DNA from: Carcharhinus amblyrhynchos
Lineage: Eukaryota
NCBI GenBank assembly: GCA_965287045.1
Contig: OZ336872.1
Location: 136,152,001-136,216,000, forward strand
Length of the DNA: 64,000 nt
Direction of reading: 5' to 3'
In this document: piece after piece, positions 9,001 through 63,000 of the stretch
Layout: each line of letters begins with the position of its first letter
How positions within the stretch are numbered: position 1 is the first letter of the stretch
Made by a program: the position numbers

Positions 9001-12000
9001 GATCTGGAGGAAAATGTGGATGCTTTGATTAGTAAGTTTGCAGATGACACGAAGATTGGTGGAGTTGCTGATAGTGCTAAGGATTGTCAGAGGATACAAC
9101 AGGATATAGATAGATTGGAGACTTGGGCACAAAAACGGCTGATGGAGTTTAATCCGGACAAATTAAATTTAGGTATGAATTATATTGCAAATGGCAGAAC
9201 CCTTAAGAACATTAACTTTGAAGGATCTGGGAGTGCAGGTTCACAGTTCCCTAAAAGTGTCAACGACAGTGGCCATGGTGATTAAGAAGGTATATGGCTT
9301 GTTTGCCTTCATTAGCTGGGGTATTGAGTACAGGAGTTGGGAAATCATGTTGCAGTTATTTAAAACCTTGGTTAAGTCTCATTTGGAGTATTGCGTGCAG
9401 TTCTGGTGAACACACTACCACAAGCATGTGGAAGCTTTGGAGATAGTGCAAAGAACCTCCAAATTCTATGGAGATGCTGCCTGGCTTTGAGAGTGTTAGC
9501 TGTAAGGAGAGTTTGAATAAAAAAGGATTGCTTTCACTGAAAAGATGGATGCTGAGGGGAGGCCTCACAGAGGAATTAAAATTATGAGAGGCATAGACAT
9601 GGTGGATAGTCAGCGTCATTTTCTAAGGTAGAAAATGTCAATTACAAGGAGTCACAAGTTCAAAGTGTTAGGGGGAGGGTTTAAAGGAAATGTGTGGGGG
9701 ATGTTTTTCGTACAGAGTAGTGGGTGCCTGGACCGCACTGCCAGAAGATGTGGTAGAAGCAGGCATATTCTCAACACTTAAGACAGCATTGTGATAGGTA
9801 TGCGAGTAAGTAAGGAATACAGGGATACTGACAGAGTAAGGGTAGATTTTTGTTTTAGTCAGGGTATCCTGACTGTTCCCTGCGGAACACCACTAACTGC
9901 TGTTACAAAGTTGTATAGATTATTTGTAAAATTGTAAAATGCTTGGGGAGAAAGCATAACATGGTCCTGTTAAAAGATGGTGCTTTTGCTATGCTTAAAG
10001 ATTTAAACAGCAAGTAAACAGAGACCCAAACTGAAACATTAATATCAAAAGGCCAAGCAGCAGTTTTTCCAAGACAACAGGCTTTTGAATTTAGCCAATC
10101 AATTTGAACCAGGCACGAAGATACCAAAAACCTATTAAATTTAAATCTGATGGTTTTGACAACATAGGGCCAATCCCATTGTGGAAAGGGTTCCCTGATC
10201 CTGTGCTATACTTTTCTTTGTTATTTGTTCCAAATACCAAAACAAAGACCAGTGCTGGACAGAGAGAGGTTGTTTTCTCTGTCTGGTAAAACACAAACGC
10301 AGGAGCACAATCTCAGGGTAAGGTGTCAAACTTACAGATTGTAATGAGAAGAATTTTTCTCATACTTGGAATTGTGAATCTTGCAGATTCTCCATTCACA
10401 AATGCCATAAATTTGAAATCGTTGAGCACATTTCAATCACGGATGAAAGGATTTTGGAAATCTCAGAGAATATAGGGACCTGTGGAGCAGCTTGGAAAGT
10501 AGAGCGGAGGCAGAAGATCAGACACAATCACATTTAATGGACTAGTTGGATCAAGGGGCAGCATAATCTGCTCCTGCTCCAATTCATTAAGATCTCATCT
10601 TCATCAATGTTTAAGTCACATACCCAATGAATCACAATATATATCATATATCAGAAAACTAGACATGTCTACAAACCTCCACAACATCCAGTATGAAAGG
10701 AGATGTCATCCACAGCAATGTCACTGCGATAGTCATTGCCCCGGACTGCTTCAATGAGGATCTGTAAGAGAAAGCATCAAAATATCAGCACGCAGCAGAT
10801 AGCAACAGCAAGTCAAACAAAACAATTTCAGATCTCCTTTTCAGTAACACTGGGGAACAGGGTAAATAATCAATTCATTATTTTCTTGATACAACCACAG
10901 TTATCTCCTCTGATTTAAAATTAACAAGTTCAACTTTATTTGAAGATATAGAATCTTTATTGGATTTCCGGCTGTTGTTGCAAATTGCCCGAGTTCATCA
11001 CATAACAAACACCAAAAACAATCACACAAATATTTTTCAGATAGTTTACCTGAGAATTTCCTGAGAGCTGCAGGCCCACTTCTCCTGCGATCCATTTGTT
11101 TCCCTTATTTCCTGTCTTTGACCACATTAGTGCTGGTATCCCTTCTTCAACCTGGTAAACTTTCAAAGCCATGCTATGAGCCACTCCATACATGTGGTAC
11201 CAGAATCGCAAGCACTGAGCTCCTGTCATTTTGCATGGAGAACTGACCAGTTGCGCTCTGTCTCCTTCACGGCCGTCATTTCCTTCAATGTAGATGTAGT
11301 AACCACCTGGACACACAATTATGCTCACTGGTTAGAAACAAATCTTCTGCTCTTCCAAGCCCTACTGGTAAGATAAGCACCTCACATTGCCTACCTGCAG
11401 TGGTGTGGTCATAAGACGGGCCTGTGTGACTTGACGGTGTCGAACCACTGATGCGTTTCCAGTCCAAATTATCTGTTTTGGATTGAGTCCAATTGCACAG
11501 ACCAACATCAAAATTACAGTCCAATGCACAACCTGTGGGTTTCATACACAACAGTTATTTGCACCTTTAATACCCGCAGCGTTAACCAGAAATCAAAACA
11601 GGTAAAACCATCGCAAGGAAGTTCCATAGGAATCACAATCATCTCGACTGGAAACAGTTTCAAAGTTCTCCACACTTCCTTTCAAAGAATATCCAGGCCA
11701 ATATGACAGAGCAAATCAATGACAGAATTATTCAATTCATGCAAGAAAAGGCAGAACATCTTACATTCCTTATAACTGACATACTGGGTGTTGCGGCTCT
11801 GCCCACTGCACTTTGGTGATGAGATTCCTGTGTTGGAAATCATGTATATTCAATCACCAAATACAGTGCGCTAGGAGGATTTGGTAGCTTTTCATTGGGC
11901 ATTATGTGAATAGTCAAATAGACTTCCATTTTTATGAGTTACCCTGCCTCTGCAAAATTAACAAGTAGCCTCAGTAGCCCAGAAGAATTAGTCCTTTCTG

Positions 12001-60000: not shown

Positions 60001-63000
60001 ATGTCAGCTGCTTTTGTTTACCTGTTCTGTCCGGTGTCATGGTGCTGGTTGTAGTTGGAGTGCTCATTGTGGCTGCTGTATCACACATGTCTGCAGAGAA
60101 AGCATGGTTAAAAAGTCAGAAGAATCTCCATGTTATAAACAAATCAAGTCAACTTTCCACACTCACCCAATGTGGAAAAAGAAAGAGGACAACATATTAC
60201 GATGAGACAGGAAACACCAAACTTAAAACCAGTGCTGGACATAGAGAGGTTGTTTTCTCTGGCTGACAAATCTCAAATACAGGGGCACAATCTCAGGGTA
60301 AGGTGTTGATCATTTAGGATTGTGATGAGAAAAAAGTACTTTATTTTTGGAGTGTGAATGTTTCCAAATTTTCAATCCCAGAAGACTGAGGATTATCCAT
60401 CATTGAGTATATTTCAGGCCGAGATAAACAGATTTGGGAATCTCAGACAATCAAGGGACCTGTGGAGCAAATTGGAAAGTGGAGCTGAGGCAGAAAATCA
60501 GCCATAATCACATTTAATGGACTAGCTGGATCAAGGGGTTGCATCGTCTGCTCCTGCTCCAATTGCTTAAGATCTCATCTTCATCAATGTTTACATAACG
60601 AATGAATCACAATTTATACCAGAAAACTAGACATGTCTACAAACCTCCACAACATCCAGTATGAAAGGAGATGTCATCCACAGCAACATCACTGCGATAG
60701 TCATTGCCCCGGACTGCTTCAATGAGGATCTGTAAGAGAAAGCATCACAATATCAACGAGCAACAGATAGCAACAGCAAGTCAAACTCAATTTTAGTATC
60801 TCCCTTTCAGTCACAGGGGGGAACAGGATGAATACATCAATTCATTATTTTCTTGATACAACCACAGATAACTCCTCTGATTTAAAATTAACAAGTTCAA
60901 CTTTATTTTAAGATAGAAAAACGCTACTTCATTTCCAACTGATGTTGCAAATTGCCCAATTTCATCACATAACAAAAACCAAAAAAAGTCACATAAATAT
61001 TTTTCAGATAGTTTACCCGAGAATTTCCTGAGAGCTGCAAGCCCACTTCTCCTGCGATCCATTTGTTTCCCTTATTTCCTGTCTTCGACCACATTAGTGC
61101 TGGTATCCCACCTTCAACCTGGTAAACTTTCAAAGCCATGCTATGAGCCACTCCATACATGTGGTACCAGAATCGCAAGCACTGAGCTCCTGTCATTTTG
61201 CATGGAGAACTGACCAATTGCGCTCTGTCTCCTTCACTGCCATCATTTCCTTCAATGTAGATGTAGTAACCACCTGGACACACAATTATGCTCATTGGTT
61301 AGAAACAAATGATCTTTTATTTTAATTTGTTCTTATGTGAGTTTTCTTGTCACTGACAAAGCAAGCCTTTATTGTTCATCCATAATTGTCCTTGAAAAGG
61401 TGGCGTTGAACTACCTTCTTGAACCATTGCAGTTTATTTGGTGTAGGTACACCAGGTTCTGTTTGGAAGGTATTTCTTGAATTTTAAGCCATTGTCAGTG
61501 AAGTGTCACAGGGAGTTCAGACTAAAATCTCCCGCACTTTGTGCACTGCAGAGGCCACCAGCATAAATAACATTAGATTTCAGGGGGCAGGGTCTATTCC
61601 CGCCTCGGAGGCTGAAACCAGCAGGACTTTGCGCATGCACAATGGTCCCGAACTGTCAACGTCCCATTTGCTGGCCAGCTCGATCAGTGGTCAACCTGGA
61701 ACACTTGCAGTGTTGGCCCTCCCCAAACCACCACCCCCCACACCCCCTCCCCCACCCAAAGCCCAATCGCAGTCCACACGACCATTCCCGGGCCAACCTC
61801 ATCCCCCATCCTGTCCCGGATCGCCCTGATCTTCAGCCTCCCCCCCGCCCAACCTTCTCCCACAGTGCAGACATTCCTGCAGGCAGAACACCCCACATCC
61901 CCCTCCCCATCCCACTTGGCAGGCCTGCCCCAATCGCCGGCCTCCCACCTGTCTCCATCGATCCCAATGCAAAGTGGCAGCAGGATCTCTCTACCCCACC
62001 CCTCACTCCCTTTAGGTCCTGCCCCATTAGGCTTTGCCCCCATCAGGCATCATCCCCTTGGCACTGTCCCGTGCTGAAGGGACAATGCCAAGATGCCCTC
62101 TGGGGCATTGACATTTTGCTCCTTGGACAGTGCCAGGTGGCACAAGCTGACATTGCCAGGGTGCCCATACTCAGGGGTCCCCGATTGCGCCCCCCACCCC
62201 CAATTTAGAACATAGAACATAGAACACTACAGCACAAACAGGCCCTTCGGCCCACAAGTTGCACCCATCACTTCTATACCTACTAAGCCATAGACCTATC
62301 TATAACCCCCAATCCCATTAGATCCCATATACTCATCCAGAAGTCTTTTAAAAGACCCCAGCGATGTAGTGGGGTCAGGTCACTAGCTCCAGAAAGTCGG
62401 GAGCTAGTCTCAACCCCACACAAGTGAAACACCTGGCAGGCTGGGAGAATTCAGTCCTGGGCCCGCTAATAGCATTTAAATGATACTTAAATTATCATTT
62501 AAATGCTAGCTCCCCCTCCCTACCGATTTCCGACGGGAAATCTGGTGCTGGGAGATGCAAGCAGGGCATGAATGCTTGTGGGAACCCGGCTAATCAACCC
62601 CCGCGCAATTCTCCCGGCCCGCTGTGCTAGAAAATTAGCACAGCGGGATGGGCGACTCACCCCCATGGTTCCAAGTTAGGACAGCGTGTGACTTTGAGGG
62701 AAACATGCCGTTGCGGTGTTCCCATGTTTCTGCTGCCCTTGTCCTTCTAAGTGGTCCTCCTATGGGTTTTGAAGATACTGTTGAAGGAGCCTTGTTGTGT
62801 TGTTACAATGCATCTTGTCGATGATACATGCAGTTGCCATGGCACGTTGATAATGGAAAGAGCAAATATTTAAGTGGTGGTTGGGGTGGTAACCAATTCA
62901 ACTGGTTTGTCCTGGATAGAGTTGAGGTTCTAGGGTACTATTGGAGCTGCATTCATTTTAGCAAGTGGAAAGTTTTGCATCATGCTCCTTGCTTTTGCCT

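What the first reader, a model, noticed from the sequence alone, without database searches (positions are those of the whole stretch)
10650..60090. A 13-exon, 1,222-aa cassette tandemly amplified in frame inside one gene: a copy-number-scalable giant MAM-(VWD)3 protein
Seen: 8,045-bp period; 13 exons sum to 3,666 nt (a multiple of 3) and introns to 4,379 nt, giving exactly 8,045. Every junction phase fits, and no unit has its own start, signal peptide or stop, so these are intragenic repeats and not a gene cluster. Known: FCGBP has repeated VWD-C8-TIL blocks and zonadhesin has N-terminal MAMs followed by D domains. Inference: a protein of more than 7,600 aa with near-identical modules, whose length could change by 1,222 aa per unequal crossover, conceptually like LPA KIV-2 repeats but with a much larger module. 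I cannot confirm from sequence alone whether this is undescribed.
[Added by the scan's program, not by the reader: the finding's places include an assembly gap (unread letters, written N; its length is only estimated) at 36402 to 36501. Whether the letters on both sides are continuous or in frame is not known: test that first.]
Basis: partly seen in the sequence, partly recalled or inferred. Interest (0 to 1): 0.88.

Follow-up and report, generated by a model that had tools for sequence, protein, structure and literature searches.

The report
Shark FCGBP-like gene's repeated exon cassette
This is the middle of one very large shark mucus-type gene (FCGBP-like) in which a 13-exon block is repeated head to tail almost letter for letter; related sharks carry the same repeat in already annotated genes, and an assembly gap inside it leaves the copy number here unknown.

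Summary
The period is 8,045 bp. My independent minus-strand model has 13 GT-AG exons summing to 3,666 nt, with every phase matching, including exon 13 to exon 1. Per-exon Pfam gives a short Thr-rich linker, three VWD assemblies (VWD-C8-TIL, VWD-C8-TIL/TILa, VWD-C8) and MAM.

The N gap is not a simple hole. Its right flank stops inside exon 12 and its left flank resumes in intron 10. The flanks overlap by 1,091 nt of unit sequence with 1 mismatch. Copy number (6 as assembled) and continuity are therefore not established.

This is not a new kind of gene. NCBI "IgGFc-binding protein-like" models carry the same 1,221-1,223-aa module 2 to about 5.6 times, at 98.9-99.9% identity between neighbouring modules. 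These come from basking shark, cloudy catshark, zebra shark and other sharks and rays. Copies cluster by species. A chicken MAM/VWD FCGBP-like gene of 4,770 aa (PMC1325057) and the human FCGBP 15.7-kb x3 intragenic repeat (PMC2588610) are in print.

Verdict: real, correctly read, a new member of a known kind. The contig is shark, not human.

The parts
10232..59020 (-). Young tandem array of 8,045-bp units as assembled. F 10232-18000, E 18001-26045, D 26046-34090, left part 34091-36401, gap, right part 36502-43326, B 43327-51371, A 51372-59020 (unit phase arbitrary).
   Evidence: Interior units differ by 0-8 substitutions per 6,825-8,045 compared columns. The private differences of F and A lie at the outer intronic edges.
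36402..36501 (.). Assembly gap (100 N) inside the array. Right flank ends within exon 12, left flank starts in intron 10, and the flanks overlap by 1,091 nt of unit coordinates.
25917..25985 (-). Exon 1 of reference unit E: 69 nt, a 22-codon Thr/Ser/Pro-rich linker, entered and left in phase 1.
   Evidence: It matches the linker between MAM and VWD1 in the shark orthologues.
24853..25097 (-). Exon 2: N-terminal half of VWD1, with a GDPH motif.
24477..24760 (-). Exon 3: C-terminal half of VWD1.
24075..24352 (-). Exon 4: first C8 domain.
23335..23933 (-). Exon 5: TIL, TILa and the N-terminal half of VWD2 (NDPH in place of GDPH).
22680..23241 (-). Exon 6: C-terminal half of VWD2 plus the second C8 domain.
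   Evidence: The donor at 22680 is the homologue of the exon 4 donor.
22175..22374 (-). Exon 7: second TIL domain.
21680..22060 (-). Exon 8: TILa plus the N-terminal half of VWD3, with a GDPH motif.
21281..21567 (-). Exon 9: C-terminal half of VWD3, after a 112-nt intron.
20570..20850 (-). Exon 10: third C8 domain, with no TIL after it.
19440..19577 (-). Exon 11: start of the MAM domain.
19095..19351 (-). Exon 12: middle of the MAM domain.
18722..18806 (-). Exon 13: end of the MAM domain. Its donor is in phase 1 and joins exon 1 of the next unit.
60022..61273 (-). Older, more diverged copies upstream of the array: exon 12' 61017-61273 (96.9%), exon 13' 60645-60729 (97.8%), exon 1' 60022-60090 (94.5%). 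No exon 11 was found upstream within the window.
5250..5318 (-). Seventh linker exon (95.9%) downstream of the last unit, reached across a 5.3-kb intron filled with LINE fragments.
2004..3236 (-). First post-array D domain (diverged): N half of the VWD about 2985-3236, C half 2004-2183. The gene continues past the window start.
   Evidence: 84.5% and 98.3% to the matching residues of the catshark orthologue

Best explanation
The window holds the central part of a single minus-strand gene of a shark. The gene is the orthologue of those NCBI names 'IgGFc-binding protein-like' in other elasmobranchs. It belongs to the MAM-bearing FCGBP-like/zonadhesin-like family of secreted, cysteine-rich mucus-type glycoproteins. 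Its core is a 13-exon, 1,222-codon module: a short O-glycosylatable linker, three VWD assemblies and one MAM domain. The module is entered and left in phase 1, so any whole number of modules stays in frame. The module sits in an 8,045-bp genomic unit repeated head to tail. Unequal crossing-over and gene conversion between units keep the copies (introns included) at 99.9-100% identity and change their number over evolutionary time. Shown here: the repeat, the exon model, the domains, the intact exons, orthology, and clustering of copies by species. Inferred: secretion, autocatalytic Asp-Pro cleavage at the GDPH motifs of VWD1 and VWD3, mucus function, the homogenisation mechanism and present-day copy-number polymorphism. 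The number of units in this animal is not determined, because the assembly breaks inside the array.
For: Period and unit identities. One pair of units has 0 differences over 6,825 nt and another has 3 over 8,045. Exon model, phases and splice sites. All 82 of 82 full exon copies are intact. Domains per exon. Orthologues: per-exon identity is 84-96% to the basking-shark (P0241, P0156) and cloudy-catshark (P0242) models. Exons are colinear and the period is 1,221-1,223 aa. The exon 13 - exon 1 - exon 2 junction residues are reproduced in the four shark models inspected. Flank orthology. No N-terminal or signal exon occurs in any unit. Concerted pattern: neighbouring modules are 98.9-99.9% identical in the 7 elasmobranch models compared, against 91% in a bird and 96% in a gecko. 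In a tree of 40 exon-5-type segments, each of the 11 multi-row groups forms a single cluster (11 changes for 12 groups, the minimum), and the window's six copies form one clade at 100/96 support. Copy number differs between species models, from 2 (Narcine) to about 5.6 in one basking-shark model that ends inside a module. GDPH cleavage is shown for human and mouse FCGBP (PMC8267560, abstract and passages).
Against: No transcript, read-depth or population data could be consulted. Expression, the exon 13 to exon 1 splice in this species and any polymorphism are therefore untested. The assembly gap lies inside the array with overlapping flanks. Units with no differences at all are what collapsed or over-polished assemblies also produce. 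The orthologous proteins are automatic gene models, and two of them (P0241, P0156) lie on one contig and look like one gene cut in two. The exon 13 donor is weak (G|GTTTGT). No exon 11 partner for the upstream exon 12' is present in the window. Of 8 variable exon sites among the units, 7 change the amino acid. That is not the signature of strong purifying selection, although the numbers are small.
Confidence: 0.85

Rival explanations
1. The array is real, but the assembled copy number and order are wrong. The two contigs that meet at the gap both end inside the repeat, so the true number of units may be six (redundant contig ends) or seven or more.
For: The flanks of the gap overlap by 1,091 nt with 1 mismatch. 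That mismatch is at a site where all units left of the gap differ from all units right of it. Several units are identical or nearly so, which read-based assemblers cannot order.
Against: Nothing in the window contradicts this. It qualifies the best explanation and does not replace it.
Confidence: 0.6
2. The array is mostly an assembly artefact. The animal has one or two units, and the rest are assembler-made duplicates.
For: There is a gap inside the array. Units are 99.9-100% identical, introns included.
Against: Independent assemblies of at least eight other elasmobranch species give models with 2 to about 5.6 near-identical modules of the same length. Units carry shared and private variants: two variant groups on either side of the gap, and private changes in unit A's exons 2 and 5. 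The array has distinct, older diverged edges.
Confidence: 0.06
3. The units are a cluster of separate tandem genes, each making a protein of about 1,200 aa.
For: Exon 1 holds an ATG near its start. Retention of intron 13 would stop translation after two further codons (ORF).
Against: No unit holds a match to the orthologues' N-terminal signal region. All junctions, including the one between units, are phase-compatible. The annotated orthologues read straight through module boundaries. The residues after the exon 1 ATG are Thr-rich, not hydrophobic.
Confidence: 0.03
4. The amplified part is a recent, unexpressed or skipped duplication (pseudo-exons), and the mature protein carries few modules.
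For: 7 of 8 variable exon sites are non-synonymous. Young copies would stay intact even without selection.
Against: The same module number range and length are kept in frame in distant sharks and rays, with 72-96% protein identity per exon between species. That implies selection on the modules as coding sequence.
Confidence: 0.06

Closest known systems
NCBI 'IgGFc-binding protein-like' gene models of elasmobranchs: Cetorhinus maximus (P0241 6,874 aa; P0156 3,423 aa), Scyliorhinus torazame (P0242 5,548 aa), Stegostoma tigrinum (P0127 4,837 aa), Heptranchias perlo, Pristiophorus japonicus, Narcine bancroftii, Mobula birostris, Amblyraja radiata
   Same: The 13-exon-equivalent module has the same order and a period of 1,221-1,223 aa. 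Per-exon identity to the window is 84-96% for the two closest species. Modules are near-identical within each protein. One N-terminal diverged MAM and C-terminal diverged D domains flank the modules.
   Different: The species differs, since no model reaches near-100% identity. The module count differs: 2 to about 5.6 per model against 6 as assembled here. These are automatic annotations, and I found no paper describing them.
Chicken FCGBP-like / fish zonadhesin-like genes (Hunt et al. 2005, PMC1325057; passages read)
   Same: MAM domains are each followed by mucin-type O-glycosylation sites and VWD domains, in a putative 4,770-aa product. VWD1/4, 2/5 and 3/6 group together, which means a repeated MAM-(VWD)3 module. 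Gut expression is reported for the salmon gene.
   Different: Bird modules are more diverged from each other (91% in the one bird model compared). No near-identical genomic units were reported in the passages I read.
Human FCGBP intragenic tandem repeat
   Same: A multi-exon cassette encoding three VWD assemblies is repeated in frame inside one gene: a 48-kb array of 15.7-kb units, 3 copies, >95% identity (PMC2588610, Table 2 passage). D3-D11 form three repeated units in human and one in mouse (PMC8267560, figure-legend passage).
   Different: True FCGBP has the FCGBP_N domain and no MAM. The unit here is half as long, holds a MAM and a linker, has more copies and is far more uniform.
Mouse zonadhesin partial-D3 repeats and zebrafish zan duplications (PMC1325057, passages read)
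   Same: [quoted passage not shown]
   Different: Those blocks are smaller or fewer, and the MAMs are only N-terminal. Authentic Zan is restricted to eutherians by the criteria of PMC9275260 (passages read).
LPA kringle IV-2 repeat (recalled, no call)
   Same: A coding tandem repeat whose copy number sets protein length.
   Different: The LPA unit is a two-exon, roughly 5.5-kb kringle unit. Its polymorphism is documented, whereas none could be tested here.

Membership tests
MAM-bearing FCGBP-like / zonadhesin-like family (Hunt et al. 2005) | MAM domain followed by a short Ser/Thr/Pro-rich linker and then VWD-C8-TIL assemblies, with the series repeated | tested here: met
   Per-exon Pfam; linker exon translation; order and repetition.
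Elasmobranch 'IgGFc-binding protein-like' orthologue group | Colinear module with a period of about 1,222 aa, and orthologous post-array D domain | tested here: met
   Exon-by-exon blastp maps. Junction residues match. The left flank is 78-98% identical to the post-array residues of two orthologues. The window's copies nest among galeomorph sharks.
FCGBP proper | N-terminal FCGBP_N domain (PF17517) | tested here: inconclusive
   The gene's N-terminus is outside the window. By proxy, the apparently full-length zebra-shark orthologue P0127 and the other MAM-bearing rows lack PF17517 in their precomputed Pfam lists, whereas mammalian FCGBP rows carry it.
FCGBP proper | Many VWD-C8-TIL assemblies, most with GDPH | tested here: met
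   There are three VWD assemblies per module. GDPH is present in VWD1 and VWD3, and NDPH in VWD2.
Authentic zonadhesin (criteria of PMC9275260) | Domain order MAM block, then mucin, then tandem VWDs | tested here: not met
   MAM domains alternate with triplets of VWD assemblies.
Authentic zonadhesin (criteria of PMC9275260) | Synteny between Ephb4 and Epo | not testable with these tools
   The window holds only part of this one gene.
Coding macrosatellite / intragenic large tandem repeat (as in PMC2588610 Table 2B) | Each unit holds whole exons that add a whole number of codons with matching entry and exit phase | tested here: met
   3,666 nt per unit, with phase 1 in and out.
Coding macrosatellite / intragenic large tandem repeat | Copy number varies between individuals | not testable with these tools
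   No reads or second individuals were available. Only between-species differences in gene models were seen.

The most novel reading that the evidence does not exclude
The 8-kb, 13-exon module is a coding macrosatellite that concerted evolution has kept uniform within each species since before sharks and rays split. Its copy number is still polymorphic within populations. On this reading, individuals make FCGBP-like mucus proteins differing by steps of 1,222 residues, and species differ from 2 to 8 or more modules. Module number would then be a tunable trait of the elasmobranch mucus barrier that current assemblies systematically miscount.
Probability: 0.4. Interest if true: 0.5.

Novelty: new member of a known kind. 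Interest (0 to 1): 0.3.

Why it matters
It gives a clean, fully phased example of how a giant secreted adhesion or mucus protein grows by whole 13-exon modules. It also shows that the same module is homogenised independently in every elasmobranch examined. Practically, it flags a locus where assemblies and automatic gene models are unreliable: there is a gap here, and the basking-shark gene looks split into two models. Protein lengths and copy numbers quoted for this family should therefore not be trusted without spanning reads. It does not reveal a new kind of gene or mechanism.

Tried and rejected
Tandem Repeats Finder cannot see periods above 500, so it reported only a 202-bp LINE-derived repeat. 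One search was a mis-specified pattern and says nothing.

A first splice-site scan with fixed score cut-offs missed three real acceptors and offered a wrong exon 6 donor (610 nt). Comparing the homologous C8 exon donors corrected it to 562 nt.

A 90-nt alternative for exon 1, also in phase, was considered. It was set aside because the four shark orthologues inspected have the short linker inside the array.

The same question was answered with another stored protein in the default length mode.

Literature. Three searches for shark FCGBP-like, concerted evolution of FCGBP, and FCGBP-like with MAM found nothing that describes this array. One search was badly framed and uninformative.

Not done:
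All searches were exon by exon.
- No structure prediction or complex prediction was run, because they would not change the verdict.
- The bacterial/archaeal genome collection and the phage, plasmid and E. coli collections are irrelevant to a shark gene and were not used.
- Supplements are closed. Those of PMC4948705 (domain-architecture figures), PMC1325057 and PMC9275260 (Table S1 of Zan-like genes) could hold shark entries that I could not see.
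Full report
**1. Observation**

A 20-mer offset count gives 31,323 pairs at 8,045 bp and 6,785 at 9,236 bp (= 8,045 + 1,191). One N run lies at 36402-36501.

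blastn of one period (18001-26045) against the window finds these copies:
- 10232-18000
- 18001-26045
- 26046-34090
- 34091-36401 (unit positions 1-2311)
- 36502-43326 (unit positions 1221-8045)
- 43327-51371
- 51372-59020

More diverged pieces lie at 59853-61310 and 4970-5369. GC skew is steadily negative on the plus strand across the array, which fits one transcription direction.

**2. The gap (tested first, as asked)**

The letters on the two sides are not continuous. On the minus-strand gene, the right flank stops 131 nt into exon 12. The left flank restarts in intron 10, so exon 11 and the first part of exon 12 occur on both sides.

The flanks share 1,091 nt of unit coordinates with a single mismatch. 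That mismatch falls at one of the few sites where all units left of the gap differ from all units right of it.

The 100 N are therefore a placeholder between two contigs that both end inside the repeat. There are two readings:
- The ends are redundant, giving six units.
- At least most of one further unit, or more, is hidden in the gap.

A regular array would stay in frame under either reading, but that is inference and not something the window shows.

**3. Exon model**

Stop-to-stop frames show the coding strand is minus. Per-piece Pfam scans give the following, in gene order:
- VWD (two halves), C8
- TIL, TILa, VWD (two halves), C8
- TIL, TILa, VWD (two halves), C8
- MAM

Short frames supply the end of MAM and a Thr-rich linker.

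A splice-site scan and inspection of junctions give 13 GT-AG exons of 69, 245, 284, 278, 599, 562, 200, 381, 287, 281, 138, 257 and 85 nt. The sum is 3,666 nt, or 1,222 codons.

Entry and exit phases fit at all 13 junction types. Exon 13 ends in phase 1 and exon 1 begins in phase 1, so the cassette is phase-symmetric. No split codon is a stop (yes/no test only).

All 82 of 82 full exon copies in the window keep AG/GT and an open frame. Of the 78 copies inside the young array, 69 are identical to unit E. The other 9 carry 8 distinct variant sites, of which 7 change the amino acid.

Every search used single exons or single open frames.

**4. Uniformity and edges**

Pairwise unit comparisons:
- 0 differences over 6,825 nt (right part of the gap unit against B)
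- 3 over 8,045 (E against D)
- at most 8 between any two interior units

The private differences of units A and F are concentrated in their outer intronic ends.

Outside the young array lie older copies:
- exon 12' at 96.9%
- exon 13' at 97.8%
- exon 1' at 94.5%, all three upstream
- a seventh exon 1 at 95.9% downstream

Uniform interior units with diverged edges are the usual picture for arrays homogenised by unequal exchange.

**5. What gene this is**

A search with exon 6 alone returns vertebrate proteins named IgGFc-binding protein-like or zonadhesin-like, several of them with MAM. Longer-length searches with stored named relatives return large MAM+VWD proteins from many vertebrates, including sharks and rays.

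Mapping the window's exons one by one on these proteins shows the same module order.

| Species | Model | Period or module count |
|---|---|---|
| Zebra shark | P0127 | period 1,223 aa |
| Sawshark | P0138 | period 1,222 aa |
| Sevengill shark | P0132 | period 1,222 aa |
| Basking shark | P0241 | period 1,221 aa, about 5.6 modules in 6,874 aa |
| Basking shark | P0156 | second model on the same contig, starting mid-module |
| Cloudy catshark | P0242 | about 3.6 modules |

Per-exon identity to the window is 84-96% for basking shark and catshark. No model is near 100%, so the window's own species was not among the rows returned.

The residues across exon 13 / exon 1 / exon 2 predicted by my model are those found in the four shark proteins inspected. 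The window's left flank matches the first post-array D domain of two orthologues at 78-98%. No part of the window matches their N-terminal signal region.

The window is therefore the middle of one gene whose 5' and 3' ends lie outside it. The contig is from a shark and I do not take it for human.

**6. Concerted evolution**

Neighbouring modules are 98.9-99.9% identical in the seven elasmobranch models compared. The figures are 91% in a curlew model and 96% in a gecko model.

I built a maximum-likelihood tree of 40 exon-5-type segments from the window's six copies and 11 proteins that I chose from the hits. Only hits of at least 60% identity and at least 191 aligned residues were kept, so the diverged paralogous D domains were left out.

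In that tree each of the 11 multi-row groups forms a single cluster (11 label changes for 12 groups, the minimum). The window's copies form one clade (100/96). Their nearest neighbour is the catshark (85/84, not strongly supported), inside a supported clade with basking shark (95/90).

Either homogenisation is continuous or each lineage amplified the module afresh.

**7. Likely workings**

By homology the product is a secreted, disulfide-rich mucus-type glycoprotein.
- VWD1 and VWD3 of each module carry GDPH and VWD2 carries NDPH. In human and mouse FCGBP every GDPH-bearing VWD is autocatalytically cut at Asp-Pro in the ER and stays held by a disulfide (PMC8267560, abstract and passages).
- The 22-codon Thr/Ser/Pro-rich linker corresponds to the O-glycosylation sites that follow each MAM in the chicken gene (PMC1325057, passages).
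- These functional points are inferred. Nothing here tests expression or cleavage.

**8. Comparison with the known**

Hunt et al. 2005 described a chicken FCGBP-like gene with a putative 4,770-aa product. It has three MAMs, each followed by mucin-type sites and VWDs, and its VWD1/4, 2/5 and 3/6 group together. The same paper describes exon-block duplications in mouse and zebrafish zonadhesin (PMC1325057, passages read).

Warburton et al. 2008 list the human FCGBP intragenic array of 15.7-kb units, 3 copies, >95% identity (PMC2588610, Table 2 passage). The three repeated D3-D11 units of human against one unit in mouse are shown in PMC8267560 (figure-legend passage). Lang et al. 2016 define FCGBP by its N-terminal domain (PMC4948705, passages), which the MAM-bearing shark models lack. 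The criteria for authentic zonadhesin (PMC9275260, passages) are not met.

Three searches of the held library found no paper on this array in sharks. Supplements were closed.

**9. Verdict**

The copy number and protein length are not established, because the assembly breaks inside the array. The gene and its repeated module are already present in public annotations of related species, and the principle is in print. It is a new member of a known kind and of modest interest.

Noticed in passing
window 5411-9400 (+ strand): A nest of LINE reverse-transcriptase fragments (Pfam RVT_1 on three of five frames tested) fills the 5.3-kb intron after the last unit. The 202-bp tandem repeat reported at 7006-7388 is two overlapping copies of this element.
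   Followed up: partly
window 18001-18208 and the same place in every unit; also 7831-8038 and 8486-8693: Each unit carries about 208 nt of a LINE 3' tail in intron 13. The tail is missing from the older upstream copy (homology jumps from unit position 8036 to 208 at about 60138-60141). It recurs in opposite orientation inside the LINE nest. The insertion may therefore predate the young amplification.
   Followed up: partly
window 59020-59853: About 830 nt unrelated to the unit sit in intron 1 of the first unit. One open frame there has no Pfam match.
   Followed up: partly
window 61310-64000: Unit homology stops 37 nt upstream of exon 12', and no exon 11 is found in the remaining 2.7 kb. A G-rich, low-complexity stretch lies at about 61500-62200. 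The partner exon is either beyond the window or lost.
   Followed up: partly
variant sites in exons 2, 5, 6 and 12 of units A, B and the right part of the gap unit: Of 8 variable exon sites among the units, 7 are non-synonymous and 1 is synonymous. Four of the 7 are private to exon 5 of the outermost unit A. The numbers are too small for a test.
   Followed up: no
window 18717-18722 and equivalents; 25896-25917: Reading through the exon 13 donor meets a stop after two further codons. Exon 1 has a second in-phase donor 21 nt downstream, and a similarly longer linker is used at the last module of one orthologous model.
   Followed up: no
proteins P0241 and P0156 (Cetorhinus maximus, same contig): One model ends inside a module at exon 7 and the other begins at exon 8. 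The basking-shark gene may be one gene of about 8 modules cut in two by annotation or assembly.
   Followed up: no
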